A stretch of 64,000 bases of DNA from assembly GCA_026770705.1 (NCBI GenBank), contig JANJGN010000189.1, positions 124,001 through 188,000 on the forward strand, in the 5' to 3' direction. The position numbers and the translations under genes are program-made. Of the stretch, positions 1,187 to 32,169 are shown one piece after another. Position 1 is the stretch's first letter, and each line of letters begins with the position of its first letter. This DNA is from Isurus oxyrinchus. Taxonomy: Eukaryota. Below the pieces are notes generated by a model, which worked only from the letters and a program-made list of their open reading frames with translations, made no database searches and was not told the DNA's origin.

Positions 1187-2861
1187 NNNNNNNNNNNNNN
1201 NNNNNNNNNNNNNNNNNNNNNNNNNNNNNNNNNNNNNNNNNNNNNNNNNNNNNNNNNNNNNNNNNNNNNNNNNNNNNNNNNNNNNNNNNNNNNNNNNNNN
1301 NNNNNNNNNNNNNNNNNNNNNNNNNNNNNNNNNNNNNNNNNNNNNNNNNNNNNNNNNNNNNNNNNNNNNNNNNNNNNNNNNNNNNNNNNNNNNNNNNNNN
1401 NNNNNNNNNNNNNNNNNNNNNNNNNNNNNNNNNNNNNNNNNNNNNNNNNNNNNNNNNNNNNNNNNNNNNNNNNNNNNNNNNNNNNNNNNNNNNNNNNNNN
1501 NNNNNNNNNNNNNNNNNNNNNNNNNNNNNNNNNNNNNNNNNNNNNNNNNNNNNNNNNNNNNNNNNNNNNNNNNNNNNNNNNNNNNNNNNNNNNNNNNNNN
1601 NNNNNNNNNNNNNNNNNNNNNNNNNNNNNNNNNNNNNNNNNNNNNNNNNNNNNNNNNNNNNNNNNNNNNNNNNNNNNNNNNNNNNNNNNNNNNNNNNNNN
1701 NNNNNNNNNNNNNNNNNNNNNNNNNNNNNNNNNNNNNNNNNNNNNNNNNNNNNNNNNNNNNNNNNNNNNNNNNNNNNNNNNNNNNNNNNNNNNNNNNNNN
1801 NNNNNNNNNNNNNNNNNNNNNNNNNNNNNNNNNNNNNNNNNNNNNNNNNNNNNNNNNNNNNNNNNNNNNNNNNNNNNNNNNNNNNNNNNNNNNNNNNNNN
1901 NNNNNNNNNNNNNNNNNNNNNNNNNNNNNNNTTTNNNNNNNNNNNNNNNNNNNNNNNNNNNNNNNNNNNNNNNNNNNNNNNNNNNNNNNNNNNNNNNNNN
2001 NNNNNNNNNNNNNNNNNNNNNNNNNNNNNNNNNNNNNNNNNNNNNNNNNNNNNNNNNNNNNNNNNNNNNNNNNNNNNNNNNNNNNNNNNNNNNNNNNNNN
2101 NNNNNNNNNNNNNNNNNNNNNNNNNNNNNNNGTCGGGGGGTCAGCAGGAAGTTGCTCTGCAATGTCAGAGGTGAATTTTTATCAATAAAAGCAGATGATC
2201 TGTTGTTAAACAAACTGTAGTTTATGGGTTTTTGCTGTGTAACATGTGGACTATAATGGCTAATGCAGGATGTCCGTACATGTTACTTTGGTGTTTCTGT
2301 CTCTCAGCTTAATACATGTTCACTCCAAAAAACTTGAACTGATAATAGTGGGTGAGGGTGGTGGAGCAGACCAGAGTTTGGAGTGCACTACCCCATCATT
2401 CACTCAGCGATCTGGGCCATTTATTACTTTGCAATTTGTGGGAGCTTGCTGTGTGCAAATTGGCTGCTGTGTTTCTCACATTACAACAGTAACTACAATT
2501 CAGGAATCAGCTCATTGGCTGTGAAGTGATTTGGTCCGTGCTGAGATGGTGAAAGGTGCTATAGAAATGTGAATCTTTCTTCTGTCGATATGTCAGACTT
2601 CGAGACAGGATTAGGGAGATCGATGGGAGTGGATAACCTGATAACATTGATGGACACAGTCAATACATTTAATCATTGATATTAAAGTGAGTATTAGAGG
2701 TTGTTTTAGGACTGAACTGGAAGCTATCACCAGGTTATTGAGAATCGGACAGTGTGTTATAATAAACTGTCTTTTGTGTTAATATGTAAACGTCACAGTT
2801 TGTGTTATTTCCCATTGAGTGTTGGATGTGAATTGTTGAGTAATTATAACACAGCACTTAC

Positions 2862-3230
2862 CAGAAACGTGAAGCTGGGTTACAGGGTAATAGTTGTGGC
2901 TCGGACCATTGTCAAATTCTATTCTGAAAAAATAAGGTCCTGCATCTTCCCGTGTGATGTTGTTTATAATCAGGGAACAGTCGCCATCTTTCAGGTCTCC
3001 AGACAGCCGGGTCCGATGGTGGAACCGTGGTAACTCGTGACTGTGATCCTTGGAGTGAAAGGCAATGGGAGCCCAGGGAATCTGTTTCTCATTATTAAAC
3101 CAGACTCCACCTCGCGGTTGGTTTTCCAGACACGATGGATAACTGTAATGACATGGAATCTGTACACACGAACCTTCCTGCGCTGTCACCTCTCGTGGAG
3201 TGTCACCTTTCCACTCTTGTGAGGGTTCAG
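2862..3230 (-). CDS. Siglec-like gene A, proximal V-set Ig exon (essential Arg present)
   Basis: Acceptor ctccccag|, donor CTG|gtaagt, 369 nt, phase 1-1; EPSQEWKGDTP...GSCVQIPCHY...GDCSLII...DAGPYFFRIEF...QLHVS shows the Siglec CVxIPC / DCSL cysteines and the F-strand YFFR. Confidence 0.9.
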
Positions 3231-3286
3231 CTGGGGAGACAAATCTCAATATTTAACTCTGGATGGTTTGTGGATCCACTAGACTC

Positions 3287-4112
3287 AAAATTTACTGATG
3301 AGGCTGAATTGGGGGGATGGTCAATACTGAGGAAAATGGCAACAAATTATTTTGGCAGGAAGAATAGAAAAACAGGATATTATTTAAATGGAGACAGGCT
3401 GCAGAATGCAGTACAGAGGGATCTGGGTGTCCTTGTACATGAATCACAGAAAGTCAGCATTCAGGAACACCACGGAATGAGGAAGGCAAGTGGAATGTTG
3501 GCCTTTATTGCAAAGGGATGGAGTATAAAAGGAGGGAAGTCTTGCAACAGCTGCACAAGGGGAGATTGTATCAGGAGCAGTGTGTACAGTTCTGGTCTCC
3601 TTACTTAGGGAGGGATAGAGTTGCATTGAAGGCAGTTCAGAGGAGGTTCACTGGGCTGATTCCCGGGATTAAAGGCTTTGTCCTGTGAGGAAATGTTGAG
3701 CAGGTTGGGCCTGTATCCATTGGAGTTTAGAAGAATGAGGGGTGACCTTATTGAAACATATCCGATTCCGAGGGGGCTTGACAGGGTGGATGCTGGGAGG
3801 ATGTTTCCCCCTCGTGGGGGAATCTAGAACCAGGGAGCACAGTTTCGGAATGAGGGCTCTCCCATTTAAGACTGAGATGAGGAGGAATTTCCTCTCTCAG
3901 AGGGGCGCTAGCCTGTGGAATTCTCTTCCCCAGAGAGCAGTGGAGGCTGGGCCATTGAATAGACTCAAGGCTGAGTGAGGCAGGTTTTTGATCGACAAGG
4001 GAGTCAAGGGTTTGGGGGACAGGCAGGAAAATGGAGTTAAGGCAACAACCAGATCGGTGAGAGCAGGCTCGAGGGGCCGAATGGCCTGCTCCTGTCCCTA
4101 TTTCTTATGTTC
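3287..4112 (+). mobile_element. CR1-type LINE 3' fragment
   Basis: YYLNGDRLQNAVQRDLGVLVHES and FKTEMRRNFLSQR...LWNSLPQ motifs, CR1 tail. Confidence 0.85.
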
Positions 4113-4194
4113 CTACATTCTTACCATCTTAAAATATTAAAGCTGCAGAATAAACATGCAAGTGACTGACCCGCTCGACCCACCTTCCATCAGG

Positions 4195-6421: not shown

Positions 6422-6799
6422 CAGAAACGTGAAGCTGGGTTACAGGGTAATAGTTATGGCTCGGACCATTGCCAAATTTTATCGTGAAAAAATAAGGTCC
6501 TGCATCTTCCCGTCTGATGTTGTTTATAATCAGGGAACAGTCGCCATCTTTCAGGTCTCCAGACAGCCGGGTCCGATGGTGGAACTGTGATAACTCGCGA
6601 CTGTGACCCTTGGAGTGAAAGGCTATAGACCATTTAGACCATTTGTTCCGTTTTAACCTTCTCATTTTCCAGATTCCGACCTGTGGTTTCTTTACCAAAT
6701 CTGATGGATAACTGTAATGACATGGAATCTGTACACACGAACCTTCCTGCGCTGTCACCTCTCGTGGAGTGTCACCTTTCCACTCTTGTGACAATCCAA
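6422..6799 (-). CDS. Siglec-like gene A, distal V-set Ig exon (essential Arg replaced by Thr)
   Basis: Acceptor ctccccag|, donor CTG|gtaagt, 378 nt, phase 1-1; GLSQEWKGDTP...CVQIPC...WKMRRLKRNKWSKWS...DAGPYFFTIKF. Confidence 0.9.
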
Positions 6800-7422
6800 C
6801 TGGGGAGAGAAATATCAATATTTAACTCTGGATGTTTTGTTGATCCACTAGACTCGATATCCACCCCCTCCATCACTGGGGCACAGTGGCTGCAGTGTGG
6901 ACCATCTACAGGACACACAATGAACTCCACAAGGTATCACACCAGATGGAAGAGAATCCTGGACACAAAAGCGGAAAAGTTCATTCTACATTGGTTCATG
7001 GTCCTCAGGACCCTGTTTGTGCAGAAGTCTGCTCTCCAACAGAACTGAAGTTGGGGACAATGCATTTGGAATTCCATTGTCCGGGGCATTGGGTTAACTT
7101 GCTGATTTTGTTTTAAATCTAACATCTATTTTTGGTCTGTTGCCTTTAAGGGACTGTAACTGGGAGTCAGGTTAATTAGGAATTTTAGGAGTTATGATAG
7201 CAGTCATTGTCGTTATGTATGTGCTTGAAATCTTTTATTTTGACGACAAATATGTTAATTTATTGTTTTAAATCTCTAAAGGTATTGGTGGATTTATTGC
7301 TTCTGAATTAAGTGCACACATCTCATAATAAATACAAATTGCAAAATCATTTTAATAGTGTGACCAGGTTTCTCTCAGGGACTTGGTCTGCCTGGCACAC
7401 ATCACCTGCCAAGTGATAACAC

Positions 7423-8717
7423 TGTTGTAATATGCCTTTCAGGGACAGCAGCATGACATCACTCGAGGGGAAGTGTGTCATGTGATTTTTAGGAACTGGT
7501 GTTCGCTTAAGTAAGTTCTATGTGTATTTGTGTGTGTTAGGCAAAAGGTCTATCTTCAAGTTCAAGTTTAGTTTGTATTTCTGTATTTGGGTGTTGAGAA
7601 AAGGGGGAACTTGAGTTAAAAAGAAGCCAGCATTCCATTGAGGTTTAATGACTGTTGAAGGGAAGTCAAAACAAATACAAGGTGTAAGAAACTGTGCTGT
7701 TGCCTAGCAACAGTGATCCAGAGGGAAGGACCCACAGAAACAGAAAAAAACAGAAAAGTACCTTCAGTTCTGTTGAAAGGAGTTGCCAGGAGAAGCAGCA
7801 AAGGATTGGGACAGATAGTCAGTCCCAAAGTAAAGAAGAAGCCAAAACTATAGAGTTTGACAGGAGAAAGGGCCCAAGAAAACCTTCTAGTCAAATCTGG
7901 AAAAGGCCCTGTTAAGTGAAGTTAAGAGTGAGGAGCAGAAGAAGGCTTCAAGCATAAAGGGAGAAAGCAGCAGGACACAGGCCTAAAGCAAACTAGGCTT
8001 GTGAGAAGCCAGAAGATCCTAGGAGACACCACAGGTTGGTGACTCATTACTACGGCCATGTGAAGCCATGGTGTTCCATTGACACGGCTGAGCATTGGAG
8101 AGACAGGGCGTGGAAGGAAGGCTGAATGCACGTGGCGATCCAGGGGACAGGAACATGGGAAGGAGAGTTTGAAATAGTGAAAGTGGACCCTTGTGGAAGG
8201 TGTCTGAGTGAAAGTGTCATGTTGGAGAAGATTCCAAAGTGAGTTCTTGGAGAGTGGAGATTGGAAACTCTCATATGAAAGAAGCTTTTCAGTGAGACTG
8301 GTTGGCTCACAGTGTAACAAGCGTCTGGGGACAGATGAGACATAGAATTTGTTTCAAGTGGGCTCTGCCACTTGCTTTCAGAATGTGGTGTCCCTGACCA
8401 CAGGTCGTCTATTGGTTTACACGGACTGTGTACTTAGTGTGAACATGAGAATATAAGATAGTTATCGTAATTTGTGTTCTACTTATGTATCTGTAAAGGT
8501 ATAGGTCTGGGTGAAGGAGTAATGTCATATAGTTTGTCTTTCCTAGTTTAATAAATGTTTTATTCTTTTGTTAGACGTTCATCAGATGACTCCTGTGACT
8601 CTGTTCAGTAGCCGCACTCCACATTCCTAAATAAAAAATAAAAGTTAGGACCTATCAAGCTGAGTTCCACCCTGGGATCTGACTTGCTCAGTAGTAACAT
8701 CAGCTGGGATGGTAACA
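7423..8717 (+). mobile_element. Solo LTR-like element
   Basis: Begins TGTTG, ends TAACA, internal AATAAA near 8549; inverted copy at ~25614-26908; no clean target-site duplication seen. Confidence 0.55.
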
Positions 8718-11100
8718 CCATCCAGTCCAAGTTTCACTTTGGCCTGTGAGCAGAACACAGCTCACACAGTTTGGCTGCAGGTGTCTCCCAGCTTTCTATC
8801 CTTGTATATCTGTTCTCATGTCCCTGTTCTAAATAACTGAACCCACAATGTATTTACCCAATTCCGTATCAGTGGCTGGTGCCTTTATATCATTATAAAA
8901 ACACAACATGGTGATCAGTGGTGGCCAAACATTCTGGCAGCAAGTTTCAGTACAGGTATGACGTGGTGAACAGCCTAAGATCGAGCTACATGACATGAGA
9001 CGACCCTCGACGCTTTGGTCAGACCACAACAGAGACACAGCATCAGAGAGGGTTGAAATCGCAGTGTACTGACTGCTCAGGAAACCTTTGAAGACACAGT
9101 GACGGGAAAGAGCTCAAGTAAAGAGCTGGGGAGCAGACGGATCCCTCGTGGTGAGATTACAGCACACGGCCTGTAGGACAGTGAGTGGGACAGTGTGTAT
9201 CGCCAGGACCAGCAGCGGGTTAGCTCAGTCAGGGAAGGCGAGTGACCAGGGTGTGGGCTGGATCGATAGTGAGCGAAGGAGAGTCAAACACACAAAAACC
9301 ATTATAAAAATCAGCCCAGAGAAGTTAGTGATTATAACGGGCAGCTTCGAGATTGCTGAACAGCAAATTGAATAAAAAACAAAGACTCCATTACTCCGTG
9401 GTGTGTTCCTGCCACAACCCGTCTTCATGGGCGGAGCTTCGGAAAAGCACGTGAAAGGGGCTAAAGCGACACTCATCCCAGGTCCTGTAGGAGAAGGAAG
9501 GTCAAAGGAATATTGTCAGAATATCCACGAAATTCCCCAGTTTGAACTGGGATGTAGCTGACCGACTATCTGAATTCAGAATGTTTAAACAGCGTACAGA
9601 GCTCTGGTTTCCTGATTCAGGTGTGACTGAACCAGACGAACAAGCCATAAAAATTCACCTCGCGATTGGGAATGAAGGTCTACACAGGCTGAGCACATCA
9701 GGATTAACAGCAGAAGAGCGAAAGGATCCCCAATAGATACGGACGATATTGGAAGACAGGTTCAGAATCAGGTGAAACTCCATATTCATCAACTAGAGTT
9801 TATGTCATTTCATCAGCCTACACAATCCATAGACCACTTCATCAGCCGATGTAGAGAAAAGGGTACGCACTGTGATTTCAAACACAGAGCCTGCAGACAG
9901 AGTTGTTGAGTTGGTGATTACATCCACTCCCATGGAAGCCTTCCAGAAAGATCTGCTAGATAAGACCAAAACCTATAGCATTGAAGAGCTACTCAAGGAT
10001 GGACATAAATACGAAGTGATCCTCGCAGGTCAACGAAGCTTACAGGTCCTCAGTACAACATCAATTGTTGACACACTCACTAGAACATCCAAACCTAGTG
10101 AGACGTGTGGAAGGTGTGGCCTTCTGCAGGCACCAAGGAAATGCCCAGCTTTCCACCAATCCTGCAAGGCTTGTGGCAGAAAGGGCCATTGACAGCGGCA
10201 GCGCACTAGAGCAAAGGCTGATGCAGCTACAAAGAGCTGTGCACTGATCCAAACAAACCCTACACAACGGGGAACTTTCAAGCAATAAGAATGACCATCC
10301 GCTATCCATCAGGAACATATAAATGTGGTGACTGACAAACCAGGAAATGGCGATGATGTACACGACGAGACTAGGAGCGGTGATCGATATTCCACCTCTC
10401 ACACATATCCTGACGTGGCTTGCCAATAAATTGTGGATTGTGGTCTTTATTGATCTCTCTGGGCACATCAAATTAACTGAAAATGTTCCCATAGGGGTGG
10501 GATTTTCTGGCCCCACCCACTTCCATGATTGTCCAGTCCGGCCGAAAGCCAATGGATTTATGTCTGTCCCATTCTCAGAAACTATCCCATCAGCTCAGTT
10601 CATGACATAACATTGAAATATGCAGAAAGATTCAACAATATTGGCAGGTTCAAGGGAGCTGCAACATTTCACCTGCAGGGGAATGCAAGTCTGTCAGACT
10701 CCTTGCATTAAAATTAATACAATCCAACTTTGCCACGCTATCTTGAGCCTTAAATGGCCAATAATTTCTATGCCTTCCAGTTTCATTTGCTCTCTCTTCT
10801 AATTTTGGCCGTGCATCTCTCTCTGTTGAACCTCCTCTCGGGATCCGATCCCCTGCCATATTAGTTTAAAGCCTCCTCAGTTGCATCAAGGGTGTAATGT
10901 CAATTGAAACCAGAGACAACATCGAAGAATGACAATCCCACAGATCAATGTGAGCAATTAAAGAAACCTCCAGACAATTTTGCCACCACAAGATCTTGAT
11001 ATAACAGCAGATTACCTCTACGCTTTAGAGACTCAAATATTCAACAGATCTATACACTTATATAATTGTCAAGAAATATGAAAATGATACCAGGAACCTC
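8718..11100 (+). mobile_element. Ty3/Gypsy LTR retrotransposon remnant (LTR end, PBS, gag; internally deleted)
   Basis: ...acacaaca followed by PBS-like TGGTGATCAG at 8909; gag-like FRMFKQRTELWF and zinc knuckle CKACGRKGH. Confidence 0.75.
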
Positions 11101-12356
11101 TTGTTCCCTGTCCTTCTCAAAGATCCATCCCTGCAGCAGGAGCCTGAAGAGTTACTGATGTGGGGCTTAATTTATCAGATTGTAGAATGATCTGGAAATG
11201 AAGGATGCCATTTGGCCCATCGAGCCTGTGCTGGGCCTTTGAAAGATCTGTCCAATTAGTCCCACTCTAACCTCTGCTCTCTCCTCCACAGCCCTGCAAA
11301 ATGTCCCCTTCAAGTATTTATCCAGTTCCTCTTCTGAAAGTTCCTGTTGAATCTGCTTCCACCGCCCTTTCAGGCAGTGAGTCAATGGTCTCTCTCTGAG
11401 CTGCAAAGTGATAAGTTTCAATGAAATATAAACTCTGCAGCAGATCAGAAACCATCATGATAACTCAGAATATTTGACAGTTTTACATACAGACAGCTTT
11501 GCCTCCCTTCTCTCTATCAGTTATCTTGCTCCCTTATCGAATTTTCTAGCATGGTGAGAAGGGACAGGAAGTGTGACGCTGAACTGCCTGTCTAATCTAA
11601 GAGCTTCTGTGTTGTCTTCATGGGAAATTCTGATGAAAATCAGCAAGAGTGAAAAATTTCAGGGCATTGATATCGGAGTGCTAGCATCAGGATAGACTTC
11701 ATCCCCCAGTTTTTATCCCTGCTTCTCTATTCAGCCGATCGCTCCCCTGTCACTCGCTGACCTACACTGGCTCCCAGTCCAGCAATAACTCAATTTTCAA
11801 AATCTCTTCATTGATTCCTTATCCCTCCATCCTCCCTCTCCACTCCCTATCACTGTCACTTCCTCCAGCCCTGAAACCCTTTGAGGTCTCTGCTGTCCTC
11901 CAATTCTGCTGTCAGACAGGGAGTCAGTGTATATCAGTGAGCACAGGGGTGATGGGTGAATGGGACTTGGTGTGAGTTTGTACACTGGCTCACTGCTGAA
12001 CCGGTTCCCTATCAGAGCTCACTGCAGGAAGTGCGAGGGCTGGACTCTCTGTCTATTCTCACTGCAGCTGTGATGTGGTCGTGGTGATTCTCAGTAAAAT
12101 GAAACCCTCTGAGCTCCTCCATCCCCGAGGTTTAGGGAGTGAATTCCAGAGCTCAGGACCCAGGCAGCTGAAGGCCCGGCCGCCAGTATTGGAGTGATGG
12201 GAATCGGGGGATGGTCAAGAGGCCGGAATTGCAGTAACACAGAGATCTGGGAAGTTGTTTGGGTGAGTTGCAGGAGGTTACAGAGATAAAGAGATAAGAA
12301 TGATCTTTTACAAAGACTATTAGCCATAAGTCTGTCCAAGCTGACGATGATATTAC

Positions 12357-12396
12357 CTTGGAGAAGTGACAGGAGGAAGTAAGATTTCCCGATCAC
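12357..12396 (-). CDS. Siglec-like gene A leader (signal peptide) coding part, begins with GTG
   Basis: GTG ATC GGG...CTC CAA G|gtaata = (V/M)IGKSYFLLSLLQ, phase 1, matching the V exons; exon acceptor tttcacag| at 12437. Confidence 0.75.
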
Positions 12397-12846
12397 TGTC
12401 CACTCCCAGATATTCCATCCACTTCTCACTCTCAAGCTGTGAAAGAGAAAGGAGTTAATGAGACCTCACCGCTTGTCCGACAGCTCTCGAGAGATCAGAA
12501 CTGCTTTTAGACAATGTCTTCACAGACTAATTTGATTCTCTGTGGGATGATAGGTGCTCTGCAGAGAGTTACAAGTCTTTAAGTAAGACAAACAATGATT
12601 GATTTGCATTTCTATAGCACCTTTCACTATCTCAGGACATCCCAAATCTCATGTCCCTGCACTTCCCTCATCCATTGAGCTAGAAAGATGTTCTGTACAA
12701 CAGACTTGAGTCTCACACCCAGAATTCAATAATCAGTAAAAATCTTTCAAAGGCATCAATCATTGGAATCTGTCTTTATAAAGTCACAACATCAACAAAG
12801 GACGGTGTTGGTGGTGGAAGTGAATTCCAATCATTCCGTTACTTAC

Positions 12847-12990
12847 CCAGGACCTGTCCGACTGCTTGCCTGGGGAGGAACTGCCCACACGCTCTGCTTG
12901 GGCTGAATGACCTCTTCCTGTGCTGCTCCCTATTTGTGTTTAATTAAAAAGGGTGCATGTGTCACTGTGAGTCAAAATGAGGAAGTGCTT
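12847..12990 (-). promoter_or_regulatory. Putative promoter and non-coding first exon of gene A
   Basis: Strong donor CTGG|gtaagt at 12847; PU.1/ETS-like aaaatGAGGAAGTg at ~12974-12987; AP-1 TGAGTCA at 12968-12974. Confidence 0.5.
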
Positions 12991-13089
12991 GGTACCAAGT
13001 GAGAAAGCAACTCTTTGCCTCGCACTGTTAGAAAACTGTTAACCCTTTGCGTGCCAATAATGTGGTTGAAGGGCCATCGACTGTTCATA

Positions 13090-14452: not shown

Positions 14453-14459
14453 GTCATTA

Positions 14460-14672
14460 AAAATAAATACTGCAGATGCTGTAAATCTGAAATAAAAACA
14501 GAAAATGCTGCATTAACTCAGCAGGTCTGGTAGCAGCTGTGGAGAGAGAAACAGACTTCTTGCTTATAGACTCTGAAGAAGGGTCATAAGGACACAAAAT
14601 GCTAATTCTGTTTATCTCTGCACAGATGCTGCCAGACCAACTCAGTTTCTCCAGCATTTTCTGTTTTTGTAT
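14460..14672. mobile_element. Short interspersed element with inverted ends
   Basis: aaaaacagaaaatgctg ... cagcattttctgttttt terminal inverted match. Confidence 0.5.
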
Positions 14673-19685: not shown

Positions 19686-19899
19686 AGTGCCGGTCTGGTT
19701 TGCCAGCCTGAATTTTGCCAAATGAATTTCGAACTGACGAACTTCTCACTCAGAGAGAGAGAGAGGGTTCGAAATCCAGTGACACACAGGAGAAATTCCT
19801 GGTCAATGACTTTACACTTTTGAGCAGAAATATCATCACAAGTCCAGAACGCAAAGGGTTAACAGCTTCAAAAAACTCAAAACACGACCTGTTCTGTCA

Positions 19900-20049
19900 C
19901 TTTGATCCAACTTCCTCATTTTGTCTCACAGTGACACATCAACCCTTTCTCATTAAATACACAGAGGCAGCAGCACAGGAAGAGGTCATTCAGCCCAAGC
20001 AGAGCGTGTGGGCAGTTCCTCCCCAGGCAAGCAGTCGGACAGGTCCTGG
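19900..20049 (+). promoter_or_regulatory. Putative promoter and non-coding first exon of gene B
   Basis: ACTTCCTCatttt ETS/PU.1-like site at 19910; donor CTGG|gtaagt at 20049; mirror of 12847-12990. Confidence 0.5.
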
Positions 20050-20499
20050 GTAAGTAACGGAATGATTGGAATTCACTTCCACCACCAACACCGTCCTTTG
20101 TTGATGTTGTGACTTTATAAAAACAGATTCCAATGATTGATGCCTTTGAAAGATTTCTACTGATTATTGTGATCTGGGTGTGAGGCTCAAGTCTGTTGTA
20201 CAGAACATCTTTCTAGCTCAAGGGATGAGGGAAGTGCAGAGACATGAGCTTTGGGACATCCTGAGGTGGTGAAAGGCGATATAGAAATGCAAGTCCTTCA
20301 TTGATCTATTTTTTTAAAGCTTTTTAACTCTCTGCAGAGCACCTATCATCCCACAGAGAACCAAATTAGTCTGTGTAGACAATGTCTAAAAGCAGTTCTG
20401 ATCTCTCGAGAGCTGTCGGACAAGAGGTGAAGTCTCATTAACTCCTTTCTCTTTCACAGTTTGAGAGTCAGAAGCTAAAGGAATATCTGGGAGTGGACA

Positions 20500-20539
20500 G
20501 TGATCGGGAAATCTTACTTCCTCCTGTCACTTCTCCAAG
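20500..20539 (+). CDS. Siglec-like gene B leader coding part, begins with GTG
   Basis: GTG ATC GGG AAA TCT TAC TTC CTC CTG TCA CTT CTC CAA G|gtaata; acceptor tttcacag| at 20459. Confidence 0.75.
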
Positions 20540-21519
20540 GTAATATCATCGTCAGCTTGGACAGACTTATGGCTAATAGTCTTTGTAAAAGATCATTCTT
20601 ATTGAGCTCTGATAGGGAACCGGTTCAGCAGTGAGCCAGTGTACAAACTCACACCAAGTCCCATTCACCCATCACCCCTGTGCTCACTGATATACACTGA
20701 CTCCCTGTCTGACAGCAGAATTGGAGGACAGCAGAGACCTCAAAGGGTTTCAGGGCTGGAGGAAGTGACAGTGATAGGGAGTGGAGAGGGAGGATGGAGG
20801 GATAAGGAATCAATGAAGAGATTTTGAAAATTGAGTTATTGCTGGACTGGGAGCCAGTGTAGGTCAGCGAGTGACAGGGGAGCGATCGGCTGAATAGAGA
20901 AGCAGGGATAAAAACTGGGGGATGAAGTCTATCCTGATGCTAGCACTCCGATATCAATGCCCTGAAATTTTTCTCTCTTGCTGATTTTCATCAGAATTTC
21001 CCATGAAGACAACACAGAAGCTCTTAGATTAGACAGGCAGTTCAGCGTCACACTTCCTGTCCCTTCTCACCATGCTAGAAAATTCGATAAGGGAGCAAGA
21101 TAACTGATAGAGAGAAGGGAGGCAAAGCTGTCTGTATGTAAAACTGTCAAATATTCTGAGTTATCATGATGGTTTCTGATCTGCTGCAGAGTTTATATTT
21201 CATTGAAACTTATCACTTTGCAGCTCAGAGAGAGACCATTGACTCACTGCCTGAAAGGGCGGTGGAAGCAGATTCAACAGGAATTTTCAGAAGAGGAACT
21301 GGATAAATACTTGAAGGGGACATTTTGCAGGGCTGTGGGGGAGAGAGCAGAGGGGAGAGTGGGAATAATTGGACAGATCTTTCAAAGGCCCAGCACAGGC
21401 TCGATGGGCCAAATGGCTTCCTTCTGTTCCAGATCATTCGACAATCCGATAAATTAAGTCCCTTTTCAATAACTCTTCAGGCTCCTGCTGCAGGAATGGA
21501 TCTTTGAGAAGGACAGGGA

Positions 21520-24500
21520 GCAAGCGGTTTCTCATATCATGTTCATATTTATTGACAATTACATAAGTGTACGGAACTGTTGAATATTTGAGTCTCTAAA
21601 GTGTGGATTTGACCTTCTGGTACACCCAGATCTTATGCTGGTTACCTTGTCTGGAGGTGTCTTTAACTGCTCACAGTGATCTGTGGGATTGTCACCCTTG
21701 GATGTTGTTCCTGATTTCATGTGGGATCTTCTCCTCGATGGAATAGGAGCAGGAATGGATCTGATTTATCCTCGGTTCCGCCTCACCGCTGTGCCCTTGT
21801 GTGTTTGACTCCATAGGCCCTTGGTTCTGAACAAATCCTTGTCACCTCGGCTGGTGGTCATGAACCTTCTGTGGGATCCTGGATGTGAACTTGTCCCAAC
21901 TGTAAACTTGGCAACTCTGCACCATAATTTTGATCATGAACATTCCTTATCTTCTCTTGTAGTTTTAAAAGTTGCGCTCTGGTTTCTGAGAGAGTAGAAT
22001 GGGTAAGAATAGCGAAATTGGTCACTACTGGCCCACCAAACATGCTCTCTGTCAGTGATGGAATAAGGTGAGGTGATGGTGTAGTGGTATTGTTGCTGGA
22101 TGAGTAATTCAGAGACCCAGGGTAATGTCCTGAGCATATGGGTTCAAATCCTGCCATAATTGATGATGGAATTTGAAATAAATAAAAAGATGAAATTCAA
22201 AGTCCAGTGATGACCACAAAACGATTGTTGGAAATCCGACCTGGTTCACCAGTGCCCTTTAGGGAACAAAATTGTCTGGCCGACATGTGACTCCACACTC
22301 CACGTCAATGTGGTTGATTCTTACATTAGGGATGGGTAATAAATCCTGGCCTGGCCAGTGACTCCCACATCCCGTGAATGAATTTAACAAAGTTGCAGTT
22401 GTAGGTGTCGATCTCAGATGTAACATTGCAATGTGTGGATCTTGCTTGGCCTGTCTACATTTGAGAATTAGGGATTTCACTGTGTGAATCATTCATTCAG
22501 CTAGGCTGTTAGATCTGGGGTAATGAGGAGAAGAAGTAGTGTGATTGATATTCCAGATTATCTGTAATCATGTCCCTAGGCTCACCAAATAAACTGAAAA
22601 TAGTGCTTAGAGTGTAAGCAGCAGTTGTGCTCGGTGTGTTGTGCTATTTTTGAATAACGGGATATCTGGTAAAGCTGTCGACGACGATGAAGTCAGTGAC
22701 ATGGACATGAAAGGATTCAGATGTGATTTTGGACTAAGAATGGGCAGGAATTTCCTGTGGAATCAGTGGTTCTTTGTGTTGACTTGGCTCATCCTCTTGA
22801 CAAGCCTCGAACTTCCCTACAATGACTTCAAGGTCATTGTTTATACCCGGCCAGGGACTGTATCTCTTGGGAGTCTCCTTGTCTGATCTGTGCCCATGTG
22901 TGAAGGATGAAGTTGTTGAAGAATATATCATCACAAAGGTTCTGGTATGATGCGATGCCTGCCATTAAAAATGACTCCCTGGGAGATGCCTCGCTTATCC
23001 CGATGACATCAAGTTGAATCAGGCCACCCTTTCAATGATATTTCCACATTTCCTGTAGAATTTTTCACTGTCCCCTCTTGTAGATGCTGGCATTTCTGTT
23101 GTGCTAAATGTACTGGATCAATTGACAGACTTGCATTCTCCTGCAGGTGTAATGTTGCAGCTCCCTTGAAACTGCAAATACTGTTGAAACTTTCTGCATA
23201 TTTCAATGTTATGTCCATGAACTGAGTTGATGGGGTAGTTTCTGAGGTTGACCCATGTGAGGTCTGACAGATTCCATGGATTGTCACTAGTGTGAGGTCA
23301 CCGCATGCCGGTAGACTTGCAATTGCTCAGCCTTTAGTCTCCACGATGTAGAACATCTGTGACACCCAGGAGGATTGATTGTACTTGCACCCCAGGACTA
23401 TGTATTCCGCACATGGAGTTGGTGAAGTGTTGTACACAGCAGTAGGTTTCCCCATGGACTTCCATGTCCTTGGATACATGTCTTTGAAAATTTGCTGGGG
23501 TGGTCGGGGGGAGGGGAATGTTGGCACTTGCCCTTGTGTCAATCTTGGCCAATAAAGGAGAGGTAGCAACTTTCTCAGGGCAGATAATTGGAATCTTGGC
23601 CAATAGTGCGGGTGATGTGACGGCATCTGTTCTCCATTAGATTGATGGTGTAAAAGGTGTGAAATTGTTCAACAATTGCACAAAACGTTGAGCACAAATG
23701 TTGCACAAACTCTAGGCCGGGGTTTTCCGGCCCAGTCATGGTGGGACCTGCCTGGGAGATAGGGACAAATATAAATCCATTGGCTTTTGGCCGGACCGGG
23801 CAATCCTGGCAGTGGGTGGGGCCAGAAAATCCCACCCCATTGGGACATTTTCAGTTTATTTGATGTGCCCAGAGAGATCATTAAGGACAACAATCCACAA
23901 TTTATTGGCAAGCCACGTCAGGATATGTGTGAGAGGTGGAATATCGATCACCGCTCCTCGTCTCACCATGTACATCATCGCCATTTCCTGGTTTGTCAGT
24001 CACCACATGTATATGTTCCTGATGGGATAGCGGATGGTCATTCTTATTGATTGAAGGTTCCCCGTTGTGTAGGGTCTGTTTGGATCAGCGCACGGCTCTT
24101 TGTAGCTGCATCAGCCTTTGCACTAGTGCCCTGCCACTGTCAATGGCCCTTTCTGCCACAAGCCTTGCAGGATTGGTGGAAAGCTGGGCATTTCCTTGGT
24201 GCCTGCAGAAGGCCACACCTTCCACACGTCTCACTAGGTTTGGATGTTCTAGTGAGTGTGTCAACAACTTATGTTGTACTGAGGACCTGTAATCTTCGTT
24301 GACCTGCGAGGATCACTTCGTATTTATGTCCATCCTTGAGTAGCTCTTCAATGCTATAGGTTTTGGTCTTATCTAGCAGATCTTTCTGGAAGGCTTCCAT
24401 GGGAGTGGATGCGATCACCAACTCAACAACTGTGTCTGCAGGCTCTGTGTTTGAAATCACAGTGCGTACCCTTTTCTCTACATCGGCTGATGAAGTGGTC

Positions 24501-25613
24501 TATGGATTGTGTAGGCTGATGAAATGACATAAACTCTAATTGATGAATATGGAGTTTCACCTGATTCTGAACCTGTCTTCCAATGTCGTCCATATCTATT
24601 GGGGATCCTTTCGCTCTTCTGCTGTTAATCCTGACGTGTTCAGCCTGTGTAGACCTTCATTCCCAATCGTGAGGTGAATTTTTATGGGTGGTTCGTCTGG
24701 TTCAGTCACACCTGAATCAGGAAACCAGAGCTCTGTACGCTGTTTAAACATTCTGAATTCAGATAGTCGGTCAGCTACATCCCAGTTCAAACTGGGGAAT
24801 TTTGTGGACATTCTGACAATATTCCTTTGACCTTCCTTCTCCTACAGGATCTGGGATGAGTGTCGCTTTAGCCCCTTTTGTGTGCTTTTCCGAAGCTCCG
24901 CCCACGGAGACGGGTTGTGGCAGGAACACACCACGGAGTAATGGAGTCTTTGTTTTTTATTCAATTTGCTGTTCAGCAATCTCGAAGCCGCCCGTTATAA
25001 TCACTAACTTCTCTGGGCTGATTTTTATAATGGTTTTTGTGTGTTTGACTCTCCCTCGCTCACTATCGATCCAGCCCACACTCTGGTCACTCGCCTTCCC
25101 TGACTGAGCTAACCCGCTGCTGGTCCTGGCGATACACACTGTCCCACTCACTGACCTACAGGCCGTGTGCTGTAATCTCACCACGAGGGATCCGTCTGCT
25201 CCCCAGCTCTTTACTTGAGCTCTTTCCCGTCACTGTGTCTTCAAAGGTTTCCTGAGCAGTCAGTACACTGCAATTTCAACCCTCTCTGATGCTGTGTCTC
25301 TGTTGTGGTCTGACCAAAGCGTCGAGGGTCGTCTCATGTCATGTAGCTCGATCTAAGGCTGTTCACCACGTCATACCTGTACTGAATCTTGCTGCCAGAA
25401 TGTTTGGCCACCGCTGATCACCATGTTGTGTTTTTATAATGATATAAAGGCACCAACCACTGATACGGAATTGGGTAAATACATTGTGGGTTCAGTTATT
25501 TAGAATAGGGACATAAGAACAGATATACAAGGATAGAAAGCTGGGAGACACCTGCGGCCAAACTGTGTGAGCTGTGTTCTGCTCACAGGCCAAAGTGAAA
25601 CTTGGACTGGATG
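21520..25613 (-). mobile_element. Ty3/Gypsy retrotransposon remnant (longer counterpart of 8718-11100)
   Basis: Same gag and zinc knuckle, plus protease-like KIDTRASAN and integrase-like DPHIAMLHLRSTP segments. Confidence 0.8.
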
Positions 25614-27530
25614 GTGTTACCATCCCAGCTGATGTTACTACTGGGCAAGTCAGATCCCAGGGTGGAACTCAGCTTGATAGGTCCTAACTTTTATTTTTTA
25701 TTTAGGAATGTGGAGTGCGGCTACTGAACAGAGTCACAGGAGTCATCTGATGAACTTCTAACAAAAGAATAAAACATTTATTAAACTAGGAAAGACAAAC
25801 TATATGACATTACTGATTCACCCAGATCTATCCCTTTAAAGATTCATAAGTAGAACACAAGTTACTGTAACTATCTTATACTCTCATGTTCACACTAAGT
25901 ACACAGTCGATGTAAACCAATAGACGACCTGTGGTCAGGGATGCCACATTCTGAAAGCAAGTGGCAGAGCGCACTTGAAACAAATTCTATGTCTCATTTG
26001 TCCCCAGACGCTTGTTACACTGTGAGCCAACCAGTCTCACTGAAAAGCTTCTTTCATATGAGAGTTTCCAATCTCCACTCTCCAAGAACTCACTTTGGAG
26101 TCTCCTCCAACATGACACTTTCACTCAGACACCTTCCACAAGGGTCCACTTTCACTATTTCAAACTCTCCTTCCCATGTTCCTGCCCCCTGGATCGCCAC
26201 GTGCATTCAGCCTTCCTTCCACGCCCTGTCTCTCCAATGCTCAGCCGTGTCAATGGAACACCATGGCTTCACATGGCCGTAGTAATGAGTCACCAACCTG
26301 TGGTGTCTCCCAGGATCTTCTGGCTTCTCGCAAGCCTATTTTGCTTTAGGCCTGTGTCCTGCTGCTTTCTCCCTTTATGCTTGAAGCCTTCTTCTGCTCC
26401 TCACTCTTAACTTCACTTAACAGGGCCTTTTCCAGATTTGACTAGAAGGTTTTCTTGGGCCCTTTCTCCTGTCAAACTCTATAGTTTTGGCTTCTTCTTT
26501 ACTTTGGGACTGACTATCTGTCCCGCTCCTTTGCTGCTTCTCCTGGCAACTCCTTTCAACAGAACAGAAAGTACTTTTCTGTTTTTCTCTCTCTCTGTGA
26601 GTCCTACCCTCTGCATCACTGTTGCTAGGCAACAGCACAGTTTCTTACACCTTGTATTTGTTTTGACTTCCCTTCAACAGTCATTAAACCTCAATGGAAT
26701 GCTGGCTTCTTTTTAACACAAGTTCACCCTTTTCTCAACACCCAAATACAGAAATACAAACTAAACTTGAACTTAAAGATAGACCTTTTGCCTAATGCAC
26801 ACAAATACACATAGAACTTACTTAAGCGAACACCAGTTCCTAAAAATCACATGACACACTTCCCCTCGAGTGATGTCATGCTGCTGTCCCTGAAAGGCAT
26901 ATTACAACAGTGTTATCACTTGGCAGGTGATGTGTGCCAGGCAGACCAAGTCCTTGAGAGAAACCTGGTCACACTATCATAATGATTTTGCAATTTGTAT
27001 TTATTATGAGATGTGTGCACTTAATTCAGAAGCAATAACTCCCCCATACCTTTAGAGATTTAAAACAATAAATTAACATATTTGTCATCAAAATAAAAGA
27101 TTTCAAGCACATACATAACTACAATTACTGCTATCATAACACCTAAAATTCCTAATTAACCTGACTCCCAGTCACACTCCCTTTAAGGCAACAGACCAAA
27201 AATAAATGTTGGATTTAAAACAAAATCAGCAAGTTAACCCAATGCCCCGGACAGTGGAATTCCAAATGCATTGTCCCCAACTTCAGTTCTGTTGGAGAAC
27301 AGGCTTCTGCACAAACAGGGTCCTGAGGACCATGAACCAATGTAGAATGAACTTTTCCGCTTTTGTGTCCAGGATTCTCTTCCATCCGGTGTGAAACCTT
27401 GTGGGGTTCATTGTGTGTCCTGTAGATGGTCCACACTGCAGCCACTGTGCCCCAGTGATGGAGGGGGTGGATATCGAGTCTAGTGGATCAACAAAACATC
27501 CAGATTAAATATTGATATTTCTCTCCCCAG

Positions 27531-27908
27531 TTGGATTGTCACAAGAGTGGAAAGGTGACACTCCACGAGAGGTGACAGCGCAGGAAGGTTCGTGTGTACA
27601 GATTCCATGTCATTACAGTTATCCATCAGATTTGGTAAAGAAACCACAGGTCGGAATCTGGAAAATGAGAAGATACATACGGAACAAATGGTCTAAATGG
27701 TCTATAGCCTTTCACTCCAAGGGTCACAGTCGCGAGTTATCACAGTTCCACCATCGGACCCGGCTGTCTGGAGACCTGAAAGATGGCGACTGTTCCCTGA
27801 TTATAAACAACATCAGATGGGAAGATGCAGGACCTTATTTTTTCACGATAAAATTTGGCAATCGTCCGAGCCATAACTATTACCCTGAAACCCAGCTTCA
27901 CGTTTCTG
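27531..27908 (+). CDS. Siglec-like gene B, first V-set exon (Arg to Thr)
   Basis: ctccccag|TTGGA...TTTCTG|gtaagt, 378 nt; ...WKMRRYIRNKWSKWS...DAGPYFFTIKF. Confidence 0.88.
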
Positions 27909-28164
27909 GTAAGTGCTGTGTTATAATTACTCAACAATTCACATCCAACACTCAATGGGAAATAATAGTGTTTGATTTGCTTGTTTTTTGGCCGTGTTAA
28001 CCAGCGTCACTATTTTTAATGATTTGCCTATTTCTGCTCCCAGATCCATGAGCTTATTGTGTGTGATTGAATCCACATCATAGCTGTAACGTAAACCGAG
28101 CTGAGGGGTGATGACACCTCCCACCTGAGTGAAGTATCTCCTCCTCACTACACCTTCCACCCCT

Positions 28165-29184
28165 CACACTGCCTGTGTAATCTCCCGTCCCATCTCCAGC
28201 CTCTCTTTCCCCTCCAAAGTCCTTGAACGTGTTTCCATCTCCCGAATCCGTTCCCATCTTTCCCGGAACTCCATGTTTGAATCCCTCCAATCAGGTTCCC
28301 ACCCCAGCCACTGTGCTGAAACAGCTCTTATCAAGGTCACAAATGGCATCCTGTGTGACTGTGACAAAGGTCAACTTTCCCTCCTCGTCCTTCTCGATCT
28401 GTCTGCAGCCTTTGACATGCTCGACCACACCATCCTCCTCCAACACCTCTCCACTGTCGTCCAGCTGGGTGGGACTGCTCTCCCCTGGCTCCATTCTTAT
28501 CCATCTCATCGTAGCCAGAGAATCACTTGCAATGGCTTTGCAGCATCATCTGAACAGTGTTAGTTTTCACCTGTCCACTGAGGATCCCCAGCTCTACCTC
28601 ACCACCACCTCTCTCGACTCCTCCACTGCTGCTAAATTATCAGGCTGCTTATCCGACATCCAGTACTGGATGGGCAGAAATTCCCTCCAATTAAATATTG
28701 GAAAGACTGAAGCCATTGTCTTCATTCCCCACTCCAAACTCTGTTCCCTCGCTACCAACTCCATTCCTCTCCCTGGCAGCTCTCTGAGATTGAAGCCAAT
28801 CTGTTCACAGCTTTGTTGTCCCATTTGATCCTGAGATGAGCTTCCGGCCTCCATTTTGCGCCCTCACTAACACCGTCTATTTCCACCTCCGTAACATCGC
28901 ATGACATCACCCTGTCTCAGCTCATCTGCTGCTGAAACCGTCATCCACGCCTTCATTACCTCCAGACTCGACTGTTCCAACACACGCTCTACACTCCATA
29001 AACTTGAGGCCATCCAAAACTGCTGACCACGTCCTTACTCACACCTAGTCCCGTTCCCTTATCATCCGCTCTGCTCGATGACCGAGACTGGCTCCTGGTC
29101 AAGCAAAGTCTCAATGTCCAAATTTTTGAATATTGTTCCTCCCTATTACAGTAATCTCCTCCTTTATTTTCATCCACGGCAACA
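28165..29184 (+). mobile_element. L2-type LINE RT fragment
   Basis: Inverted copy of 5141-6165; LLDLSAAFD motif. Confidence 0.85.
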
Positions 29185-30104
29185 TTCCCTATCTCAGGAG
29201 CCTCCTCCAGTCCCTACAACCCTCCCTATCTCAGGAGCCTCCTCCAGTCCCTACAACCCTCCCTATCTCAGGAGACTCCTCCAGTCCCTACAACCCTCCT
29301 ATCTCAGTACCCTCTTCCAATCCCGAAAACCATTCCTATCACTGCAAACTCCTCTGGACCCAACACCCCTCCCTATCTCTTTAACCTCCTCAAGCCCCGA
29401 TAACCCTCGCGATATTTGTAGCCTCCTCCAGTCCTAACAACCTCCCCTATCTCTGCAACCTCCTCCAGACCGAATACCTCTCCCTATCTCTGTAAGCTGG
29501 TCCATCTCTTACAACCCATTATATTTCTGTAACCTCCTCCAGCCCACTACAACCCTCCCTATCTCTGTAACCTCCTCCAGTCCCTAAGAGTTTCCTTTAT
29601 CTCTGTAACCTCCTCCAGCCATTATAACCCTCCCTATCTCTGTAGCCTCCCTCAGCCCCAGCCACACTCCATATCTATCTAACCTCGTCCTGCCCCTACA
29701 AACCTCCCTATTTCTGTAACCCCATCCTGCCCCAAAAACTCCCCCATCTCTGTAAACTCCTCCAGTCCCTGCAACCTTCCCTACCTCTGGAACCTCCACC
29801 AGCCTTTCCAACCCTCCCTACCTCTGCAATCCGTCCAGCCCCTACAACTCTTCCTATCCCTGTAAACTCCTCCTGCCCCTAAAACCTTCTCTGCCCTTGC
29901 AGCCTCCTCCAGTCCCTACACGTTCCCCATCTCCATAAACTCCTCAAATCCCTATAGCCCTCCCTATCTCTGTTACCTCCTCCAGCCCCCACAAACCTCC
30001 CTATCTGTGTAACCTCCTCCAGCCCCAGATGGAAGGTGGGTCGAGCGGGTCAGTCACTTGCATGTTTATTCTGCAGCTTTAATATTTTAAGATGGTAAGA
30101 ATGT

Positions 30105-30930
30105 AGGAACATAAGAAATAGGGACAGGAGCAGGCCATTCGGCCCCTCCAGCCTGCTCTACTGATCTGGTTGTGGCCTTAACTCCATTTTCCTGCCTGTT
30201 CCCCAAACCCTTGACTCCCTTGTCGATCAAAAACCTGCCTCACTCAGCCTTGAGTCTATTCAATGGCCCAGCCTCCACTGCTGTCTGGGGAAGAGAATTC
30301 CACAGGCTAGCGCCCCTCTGAGAGAGGAAATTCCTCCTCATCTCAGTCTTGAATGGGAGAGCCCTCATTCCGAAACTGTGCTCCCTGGTTCTAGATTCCC
30401 CCACGAGGGGGAAACATCCTCCCAGCATCCACCCTGTCAAGCCCCCTCGGAATCGGATATGTTTCTATAAGGTCACCCCTCATTCTTCTAAACTCCAATG
30501 GATACAGGCCCAACCTGCTCAACATTTCCTCACAGGACAAACCCTTTAATCCCAGGAATCAGCCCAGTGAACCTCCTCTGAACTGCCTTCAATGCAGAGT
30601 CTATCCCTCCCTAAGTAAGGAGACCAGAACTGTACACACTGCTCCTGATATAATCTCACCCTGTGCAGCTGTTGCAAGACTTCCCTCCTTTTATACTCCA
30701 TCCCTTTGCAATAAAGGCCAACGTTCCACTTGCCTTCCTCATTCCGTGGTGTTCCTGAATGCTGACTTTCTGTGATTCATGTACAAGGACACCCAGATCC
30801 CTCTGTACTGCATTCAGCAGCCTCTCTCCATTTAAATAATATCCTGTTTTTCTATTCTTCCTGCCAAAATAATTTGTTGTAGTCCTCCTCAGTATTGACC
30901 ATCCCCCCAATTCAGCCTCATCTGTAAATT
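30105..30930 (-). mobile_element. CR1-type LINE 3' fragment
   Basis: Inverted copy of 3287-4112. Confidence 0.85.
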
Positions 30931-30987
30931 TGAGTCTAGTGGATCCACAAACCATCCAGAGTTAAATATTGAGATTTCTCTCCCCAG

Positions 30988-31356
30988 TTGAACCCTCACA
31001 AGAGTGGAACGGTGACACTCCACGAGAGGTGACAGCGCAGGAAGGTTCGTGTGTACAGATTCCTTGTCATTACAGTTATCCATCGTGTCTGGAAAACCAA
31101 CCGCGAGGTGGACTCTGGTTTAATAATGAGAAACAGATTCCCTGGGCTCCCATTGCCTTTCACTCCAAGGATCACAGTCACGAGTTACCACGGTTCCACC
31201 ATCGGACCTGGCTGTCTGGAAACCTGAAAGATGGCGACTGTTCCCTGATTATAAACAACATCAGACGGGAAGATGCAGGACCTTATTTTTTCAGGATAGA
31301 ATTTGACAATGGTCCGAGCCATAACTATTACCCTGTAACCCAGCTTCACGTTTCTG
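30988..31356 (+). CDS. Siglec-like gene B, second V-set exon (essential Arg present)
   Basis: ctccccag|TTGAA...TTTCTG|gtaagt, 369 nt; DAGPYFFRIEF. Confidence 0.88.
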
Positions 31357-32169
31357 GTAAGTGCTGTGTTATAATTACTCAACAATTCACATTCAACACT
31401 CAATGGGAAATAACGCAAACTGTGACGTTTACATATTAACACAAAACACAGCTTATTATAGCACACTGTCTGATTCTCAATAACCTGGTGATAGCTTCCA
31501 GTTCAGTCCTAAAGCAACCTCTAATACTCATTTTAATATCAATGATTAAAAGTATTGACTGTGTCCATCAATGTTATCAGGTTATCCACTCCCATCGATC
31601 TCCCTAACCCTGTTTGACAGTTTTCCATATCGACAAAAGAAAGATTCGCATTTCTATAGCGCCTTTCAACACCTCTGTACGTTGCAAATGGTTTCACAAC
31701 CAATGAAATAATTCTTGAAATGTTGCCCTTGTTGTAATATGGGACACACAGCAGCCAATTTATTCACAGGAAGCTCCCAGAAACAGCAATGTGATCAATA
31801 ACCTGATCATCTGTTTTAGATGCCGGTTCAGTGATTGGTTCAAATGGATTCTCTCCTGCTGGGAACAGGATAGAATTTAAATCTGGCAGATTTCAGAGAA
31901 AGTAACAAGCCAGTGTGTCAGGAACTGTGAGCTGCTCCCCCACCCTCACCTGGGATTGTCAGTTCAATTGTCTCAAAGTGGAAGTGAATTCATCTGAGAG
32001 ACAGAAAATCCACTAAGTCTGAAAATAGGAAATTCTCTCCTGATCGTTGTAATCTCTCAGTTCTGATATCATCCTTGTAAAAGTGCTTTCTCTTGTGGGA
32101 CTGTGGTTTCTATTTGAACTGATGTTTCACGTTATATTTCTCCAAAAGGATCCATTCTCTGTCTGTTAG

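What the first reader, a model, noticed from the sequence alone, without database searches (positions are those of the whole stretch)
2605..31612. Head-to-head inverted gene pair with a sharply bounded near-identical 5' tract
Seen: ~2605-12930 and ~19965-31612 are near-identical inverted copies (5' exons, leader, introns with shared transposons, both V exons). About 250 bp past the proximal V exon, near-identity drops to clearly diverged but alignable homology (2290-2600 versus 31620-32010), and the same happens inside the promoter. Established: human SIGLEC11/SIGLEC16 are head-to-head and homogenise their 5' ligand-binding part by gene conversion. Inference: older paralogs with recent conversion restricted to the promoter and ligand-binding exons, keeping specificity matched while signalling ends differ. 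Gene A's C and TM exons are in gaps or outside the window, so its signalling type is unknown.
Basis: partly seen in the sequence, partly recalled or inferred. Interest (0 to 1): 0.72.

Follow-up and report, generated by a model that had tools for sequence, protein, structure and literature searches.

The report
Giant shark Siglec paired-receptor array
The two back-to-back genes are real, one ending in a likely 'brake' tail and the other in a likely 'accelerator' anchor, but both have lost their normal start codon and are just two pieces of a shark array of several hundred sugar-sensing immune-receptor genes that likely swap parts by recombination, so this pair is not a specially matched couple.

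Summary
The inverted arms are real (96.65% over 9,608 aligned bases; step to 76.5% about 255 bases past the proximal V exon). They encode Siglec-type V domains of a shark. Gene A continues left of the window as leader-V-V-TM-tyrosine-motif tail (its C2 exon is deleted); gene B is leader-V-V-C2-Arg-TM. So opposite signalling ends are confirmed. But the long similarity is not pair-specific: ten other copies are as close to A as B is, and the step is a family-wide intron dimorphism found in both signalling types. Only an 804-base leader patch (1 mismatch) and possibly V1 point to A-B exchange; the patch carries ATG>GTG, and B also has a stop, so both genes are likely disabled. The window is a mosaic of near-identical blocks found elsewhere. 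The genome holds 385 exact leader-motif hits (about 580 extrapolated) on at least 13.8 Mb of contigs: a very large CD33-related-like paired-receptor array, perhaps inflated by uncollapsed haplotypes. The scan noted a similar head-to-head pair, the Arg anchor and the extra cysteine before on other DNA of this genome; I found no note or paper giving the array's size.

The parts
12357..12396 (-). Gene A leader coding exon; starts with GTG where the family has ATG
6422..6799 (-). Gene A distal V exon (V1), open frame, Thr in place of the sialic-acid-binding Arg
2862..3230 (-). Gene A proximal V exon (V2), Arg kept, extra BC-loop Cys
2279..2285 (-). Junction of a ~452-base deletion that removed gene A's first C2 exon; TM, cytoplasmic and tail exons follow left of the window (G000:C189:123154-123058, 122084-122003, 120538-120290; second copy 119126-117403)
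11341..12416 (-). B-like patch in gene A (804 aligned bases, 1 mismatch to B), interrupted by a 272-base piece (12022-12293) typical of another leader class
20480..21283 (+). Matching patch in gene B (likely donor lineage), containing the GTG leader at 20500-20539
27531..27908 (+). Gene B distal V exon (V1), Thr for Arg
30988..31356 (+). Gene B proximal V exon (V2), Arg kept
32170..32466 (+). Gene B C2 exon ending in TAA where intact copies have CAA
32790..32942 (+). 3' half of a second C2 exon, a remnant common to Arg-TM genes
34061..34200 (+). Gene B TM exon with intramembrane Arg and short tail
2420..2604 (.). Start of the 'diverged' flank in A: post-V intron class shared with many genes of both types
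31613..32169 (+). 'Diverged' flank in B: another post-V intron class, 40 of 40 listed hits at 94-100%
7078..16719 (.). Block with 5 differences from G000:C71 (about 707850-717490), where the same promoter, GTG leader and intron 1 belong to an Arg-TM gene
17893..64000 (.). Part of a ~109-kb block with a 99.5-99.8% copy on G000:C52 (1654969-1763772), including gene B and gene C
59192..64000 (-). 3' end of neighbouring gene C (leader-V-C2-11 further C2-TM-tail): C2 exons 63408-63691 and 62360-62643, TM 61449-61545, cytoplasmic exon 60489-60570, tail 59192-59440 with LFYANI and TEYAQI

Best explanation
Genes A and B are two members of a several-hundred-gene array of Siglec-type receptors in a shark genome, A ending in an uncharged membrane anchor with a tyrosine-motif tail (likely inhibitory) and B in an arginine-bearing anchor with a short tail (likely activating), and their similarity likely comes from shared descent in a two-V subfamily that is reshuffled by recombination among many copies, with only a 0.8-kb leader patch likely converted between A and B themselves. 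Shown: exon anatomy, lesions, the copy numbers as assembled, the mosaic of near-identical blocks, the patch. Inferred: unequal crossover and conversion between misaligned copies (direct or inverted) join promoter/leader segments, V cassettes and signalling ends in new combinations; the patch went from B's lineage into A's and spread an ATG>GTG start loss, so this pair is probably dead or weakly translated, while intact relatives act as paired sialic-acid receptors (inhibitory via SHP phosphatases, activating via an ITAM adaptor; recalled mechanism, untested).
For: Siglec identity: best solved-structure hits Siglec-7, -5, -8, sialoadhesin, CD33 (E 1e-13 to 5e-12), Arg aligned; closest named proteins are shark 'Siglec-like' models, up to 96%. 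Array: 150 of 150 scored V exons at 93-100% (1053 candidates), 150 of 150 tail exons (426 candidates), 150 of 150 Arg-TM exons, 99 identical (237 candidates), 381 ATG and 4 GTG leader motifs; whole contig C189 has 35 leaders, 55 V, 23 uncharged TM, 14 Arg-TM, 33 tails in 987 kb. Not pair-specific: in a 12-copy alignment A differs from B at 119/3767 intron-1 sites and from A2 at 75/3766; V2 8 against 3-5; the same 5' module leads to an inhibitory end in 5 copies and an Arg-TM end in 7. Patch: 1 mismatch in 804 bases, 0 of 10,000 permutations reach it (longest 541); best other leaders of that lineage differ at 12-14 of 681; GTG is found only in A, B and one near-identical copy of each. End swapping: A's promoter-to-intron-1 block is 5 differences in 9.6 kb from a C71 gene with an Arg-TM end, while A's 3' end is 98-99.8% like C2-less inhibitory copies. 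Family members are spliced V>C2 (3 of 4 runs) and C2>Arg-TM (2 of 4) in contigs of presumed RNA runs.
Against: V1 of A and B are each other's nearest distinct neighbours among the 75 V exons annotated (7 differences; next 12 and 9), which fits an older pair-level exchange of that exon. V exons are not freely mixed between signalling types: 50 of 59 have a nearest neighbour of their own type and the tree needs 5 changes against 9 in shuffles, so whole-gene duplication dominates and end swapping is occasional. Block boundaries in such an array could partly be assembly switches, and contigs may hold both haplotypes; no long reads or depth were examined. GTG initiation was not tested. Binding and signalling were not tested.
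Confidence: 0.8

Rival explanations
1. A dedicated inhibitory/activating pair whose promoter and V exons are kept matched by repeated conversion between the two neighbours, as in SIGLEC11/SIGLEC16.
For: Head-to-head at 8.0 kb with opposite ends; pair-restricted patch with a shared rare GTG; V1 mutual nearest neighbours; 5 of 8 head-to-head junctions seen join unlike ends.
Against: Most of the tract and V2 are closer to other copies; the step is family-wide and unrelated to signalling type (A class: 7 activating, 4 inhibitory; B class: 2 and 2; other: 10 and 14, of 39 genes); B's copy on C52 faces an unmatched partner; 3 of 8 junctions join like ends; both genes carry start loss, B a stop, and the V domains differ at 5 of 125 and 5 of 120 residues.
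Confidence: 0.12
2. The arms, or the mosaic around them, are an assembly product: two haplotypes or paralogs mis-joined in a collapsed repeat array.
For: The window switches between blocks that are almost identical to stretches on three other contigs; the array is very repetitive and lies on at least 16 unjoined contigs.
Against: A and B differ by 3.3% plus large indels and have unrelated 3' ends, each with several near-identical copies, some on the same contig; head-to-head spacing of 8-11 kb recurs at 7 of the 8 junctions seen, and the same spacer is seen on C52 and C71.
Confidence: 0.08

Closest known systems
Primate SIGLEC11/SIGLEC16 (PMC5701461; abstract and Background read)
   Same: Head-to-head about 9 kb apart, inhibitory and activating ends, conversion that includes the 5' region and comes from a non-functional donor.
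   Different: There the converted ~3 kb includes the V exon and only two genes take part; here the youngest tracts miss the V exons, both genes lose the start codon, and the pair sits among hundreds of near-copies.
CD33-related Siglec cluster, including Siglec-5/14 and two-V Siglec-12 (PMC6288428, PMC13358205; passages read)
   Same: Siglec-type V domain with the essential Arg, C2 stalks, tails with two tyrosine motifs or a charged TM residue, fast turnover, Arg loss in a distal V.
   Different: Humans have about fifteen Siglecs in all (PMC7226832 abstract); here about 580 leader exons are extrapolated, with 1-7 V and 0-12 C2 domains per gene and an extra Cys in every internal V. Orthology to the mammalian cluster is untested. 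PMC7226832 (passages) states that fish genomes lack inhibitory CD33-related Siglecs; it deals with teleosts and does not mention sharks.
Expanded paired-receptor families such as Xenopus FcR-like and CEACAM genes (PMC2413239, PMC5112662; search listing only) and chicken CHIR (recalled)
   Same: Lineage-specific arrays of activating and inhibitory Ig receptors with variable domain numbers.
   Different: Different domain family; none is a sialic-acid-binding type.

Membership tests
Siglec family | N-terminal V-set domain of Siglec type | tested here: met
   Pfam V-set and Ig_CD22 above cut-off for V1 and V2; top 17 PDB hits are Siglecs
Siglec family | Essential Arg on the F strand | tested here: met
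   Aligned with Siglec-7 and -5 in V2; V1 of A and B has Thr. Among intact V exons: 31 of 31 internal, 15 of 15 single, 5 of 17 first-of-several have Arg
Siglec family | Siglec cysteine pattern (B-E intra-sheet pair, extra Cys linking to domain 2; feature recalled) | tested here: met
   Three Cys align with those of Siglec-7/-5 and the F strand has none; C2 exon has the extra Cys. Bond formation not tested
Siglec family | Binds sialylated glycans | not testable with these tools
   Needs glycan arrays
CD33-related Siglecs | Tail with ITIM plus distal ITIM-like motif | tested here: inconclusive
   Gene C has LFYANI and TEYAQI; gene A has LLYANP and TEYAQI. The signature I/V/L/S-x-Y-x-x-L/V (PMC7226832) is not strictly met by either proximal motif
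CD33-related Siglecs | Orthology or synteny with the mammalian 19q13 cluster | tested here: inconclusive
   Searches for two neighbour markers (ETF, LSR; choice recalled) hit other contigs and gave no link; no tree with mammalian Siglecs was built
SIGLEC11/16-type converted pair | Head-to-head neighbours with opposite signalling ends | tested here: met
SIGLEC11/16-type converted pair | Ligand-binding exons closer to each other than to any other paralog | tested here: not met
   True for V1 (Arg-less), false for V2 and most introns
SIGLEC11/16-type converted pair | Both products co-expressed with like glycan preference | not testable with these tools
   RNA contigs show family-level splicing only; both genes lack ATG

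The most novel reading that the evidence does not exclude
This shark carries by far the largest Siglec-type locus described: more than 13 Mb and a few hundred genes per haploid genome, in which promoters, 1-7 disulfide-linked V cassettes, 0-12 C2 spacers and inhibitory or activating ends are recombined so fast that single genes are mosaics of three or four lineages, giving a germline-encoded combinatorial repertoire of paired glycan sensors and showing that CD33-related-like paired Siglecs predate, or arose in parallel with, those of mammals.
Probability: 0.55. Interest if true: 0.8.

Novelty: new variant of a known kind. Interest (0 to 1): 0.6.

Why it matters
The pair alone repeats a known pattern and is probably disabled. 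The setting matters more: a review of fish Siglecs says fish lack inhibitory CD33-related Siglecs, and mammals have on the order of ten, yet this shark assembly holds hundreds with both signalling ends. If real, it moves paired Siglec-like sensing to the base of jawed vertebrates (or shows convergence), offers a large natural series to study how conversion, crossover and pseudogene donors shape paired receptors, and gives an extreme test of the reported link between CD33-related Siglec number and lifespan (PMC4384638, passages read). It also warns that apparent 'conversion tracts' between neighbours need the whole family as control.

Tried and rejected
Pair-specific conversion of the whole tract: rejected by the 12-copy alignment. 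Step as the border between ligand-binding and signalling parts: rejected, intron class is independent of signalling type. Gene A's C2 exon hidden in a gap: rejected, deletion junction found. Upstream in-frame ATG rescuing the leaders: none in the leader exon (A has one out of frame). Positive selection: pooled uncorrected pN/pS over 51 distinct V exons was 0.81 (BC-CC' loops), 0.69 (F-G), 0.51 (framework), none above 1, so not shown. Enrichment of unlike ends at head-to-head junctions: 5 of 8, about what chance gives. Synteny: ETF and LSR searches uninformative; a small group of 4 family genes lies at 15.13-15.19 Mb of the 19.9-Mb contig C34, neighbours not identified. Splicing of V directly to the inhibitory TM in C2-less genes remains untested with RNA. 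Contig depths were not used as expression or copy number. Literature: searches 'siglec+shark+expansion', 'siglec+cartilaginous fish', 'CD33-related siglec+shark', 'siglec+elasmobranch', 'CD33rSiglec+gene number+evolution+fish', and two wider ones listed no paper on a shark Siglec cluster; the library lacks most subscription papers and no supplements were read, so gene-family tables of shark genome papers may hold counts. No structure prediction was run.
Full report
Observation. Self-comparison shows two inverted arms, A (minus strand, about 13052 to 2420) and B (plus strand, 19849 to 31800).

Anatomy. Each arm has a 40-base leader coding exon and two V exons. The V domains match Siglec-7, -5, -8, sialoadhesin and CD33 best among solved structures, with the sialic-acid-binding Arg aligned in V2 and replaced by Thr in V1. 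The closest named proteins are shark models called Siglec-like, 96% in white shark and 91% in basking shark; 93 of 105 candidates passed, all with names from sharks and rays. Gene B continues with a C2 exon, half of a second C2 exon and a TM exon with an Arg and a short tail. Gene A continues left of the window with an uncharged TM exon, a short cytoplasmic exon and a tail with LLYANP and TEYAQI, the last two duplicated. Its C2 exon is gone: against a paralog that keeps it, about 452 bases including the exon are deleted at window 2279-2285, and four other loci share that flank at about 100%. But both leaders begin GTG instead of ATG, with no in-frame ATG upstream in the exon, and B's C2 exon ends in TAA where intact copies have CAA. 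Both are likely disabled.

The family. A search of the own genome with B's V2 returned 150 of 150 scored matches at 93-100% (1053 candidates); the tail exon 150 of 150 at 86-100% (426); the Arg-TM exon 150 of 150, 99 identical (237). An exact leader motif occurs 381 times with ATG and 4 times with GTG; the motif catches 34 of 51 leaders in the 1.30 Mb that I annotated, giving about 580. The hits lie on at least 16 contigs; six known lengths sum to 9.9 Mb and hit positions on ten more add at least 3.9 Mb. Contig C189 (987 kb) holds 35 leaders, 55 V, 32 first C2, 93 further C2, 23 uncharged TM, 14 Arg-TM and 33 tail exons. Of 33 complete units in the annotated 1.30 Mb (18 Arg-TM, 15 tailed), a crude screen of start, V, first C2 and Arg-TM exons found no lesion in 21. 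Genes have 1-7 V and 0-12 C2 exons. If the assembly holds both haplotypes these numbers halve; this was not resolved. Contigs of four presumed RNA runs (three samples) show GT-AG joints from V to C2 in 3 of 4 and from C2 to the Arg-TM exon in 2 of 4, at family level.

Is the tract pair-specific? I aligned A and B with the ten closest copies picked by their 3' flanks (four A-type, six B-type). Nine carry the same 5' module with the same intron repeats and the tenth a more diverged form of it; five of the twelve end inhibitory, seven in the Arg-TM. Mismatches of A to B against A to A-type copies: rest of intron 1, 119/3767 against 75-105; V1-V2 intron 82/3081 against 57-61 (three full-length copies); V2 8/366 against 3-5 (three full-length copies; a fourth is truncated); post-V 10/255 against 2-6. 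So B is not A's special partner there. Two exceptions. First, a patch (A 12416-11341, B 20480-21283) has 1 mismatch in 804 bases, while the nine other copies differ at 63-73 of about 680 in its larger part; 0 of 10,000 permutations gave so long a run, and the best other leaders of B's lineage differ at 12-14 of 681 (38 of the 40 hits listed are 97-98%). B's lineage continues on both sides in B but not in A, so the likely direction is B to A. The patch holds the GTG, which occurs only in A, B, a near-identical copy of B on C52 and a near-identical copy of A's 5' end on C71. Second, V1 of A and B differ at 7 sites, against 16-20 to A-type copies, which may record an older exchange, although another B-type copy on C71 could equally be the donor.

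The step. Both 'diverged' flanks are common intron classes: A's matches many loci at 96-97%, B's 40 of 40 listed loci at 94-100%. Among 39 genes the A class occurs in 7 activating and 4 inhibitory genes, the B class in 2 and 2. The step is a family-wide polymorphism, not the edge of a tract between these neighbours. Likewise most family members begin to match B's promoter at nearly the same point.

Mosaic. Window 7078-16719 differs at 5 positions from a block on C71 where this promoter, GTG leader and intron 1 lead to other V exons and an Arg-TM end; from 17893 rightwards the window is part of a 109-kb block copied at 99.5-99.8% on C52, where B's twin faces a different inhibitory gene with V exons only 87-90% like B's; the left end is 98-99.8% like the C2-less inhibitory copies. 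Gene A is thus a chimera, and the same 5' end serves opposite signalling ends. Of 8 head-to-head junctions seen, 5 join unlike ends, 2 two activating and 1 two inhibitory genes. Against free mixing: 50 of 59 V exons have a nearest neighbour of their own signalling type and the tree of 30 last-V exons needs 5 changes against about 9 in shuffles, whereas C2 exons are intermixed (9 against 10.8) and mean V identity is the same within and between types (88.9% and 88.6%) (two duplicate C52 genes, broken V exons and genes without a TM were left out).

Mechanism. Shown: anatomy, lesions, copy counts as assembled, the patch and block boundaries. Inferred: birth-and-death duplication of whole genes and multi-gene blocks, plus crossover and conversion between misaligned copies that re-pair 5' ends, V cassettes and signalling ends; one such event carried a start loss from B's lineage to A's. 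Function of intact members as paired sialic-acid receptors rests on analogy with mammalian Siglecs (PMC6288428, PMC13358205, passages read).

Comparison and novelty. It works like SIGLEC11/16 in layout and in conversion from a dead donor (PMC5701461, abstract and Background), but fails the test that the ligand exons be matched pair-wise. The array resembles the CD33-related cluster at far larger scale; orthology is untested. PMC7226832 (passages) says fish lack inhibitory CD33-related Siglecs, on teleost data; the whale shark genome paper mentions Siglecs once, in a list. Seven searches found no description of a shark cluster. Earlier notes of this scan describe a similar head-to-head pair, the Arg anchor, Arg loss in V1 and the extra Cys on other DNA of this genome; none of those listed gives the array's size. 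Verdict: real feature, reading partly right, new variant of a known kind; interest 0.6, carried by the array rather than by the pair.

Noticed in passing
window 2862-3230 and 30988-31356; G000:C189 and C52 block: Internal V domains carry an extra BC-loop Cys (31 of 31) that first V domains mostly lack (3 of 36; 8 of 75 exons not parsed); in 93 database proteins 33 of 41 against 4 of 89. It likely accepts the inter-domain disulfide. Noted before as e1-9575185.
   Followed up: partly
G000:C189:689-705 kb and C52:1871-1887 kb: Arg-TM genes with seven tandem V exons, several of them identical.
   Followed up: partly
window 59192-64000 and G000:C189:188001-202600: Gene C: one V, twelve C2 exons of which eleven are 94-98% alike, TM and two-tyrosine tail, no lesion found.
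   Followed up: partly
G000:C189:117403-122084 and 10251-19591: The cytoplasmic exon plus tail exon unit is tandemly duplicated (up to four tails behind one gene) in two variants, one with ..YANI and one with ..YANP; alternative tails are possible.
   Followed up: no
G000:C189:56715-56808; C34:15134588-15134680 and 15178259-15178351: A third TM exon class, 72-77% like the inhibitory one, without a tail exon nearby.
   Followed up: no
G000:C34:15130000-15190000: Four family genes on a 19.9-Mb contig, a possible anchor for synteny.
   Followed up: partly
window 32463-32465: The TAA at the end of B's C2 exon (also in two close copies) would give a secreted V-V-C2 protein if the gene were translated.
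   Followed up: no
window 13081-14452, 4192-5144, 29186-30026: 43-base minisatellite upstream of A and 37-base minisatellite in the V1-V2 intron of both genes.
   Followed up: no
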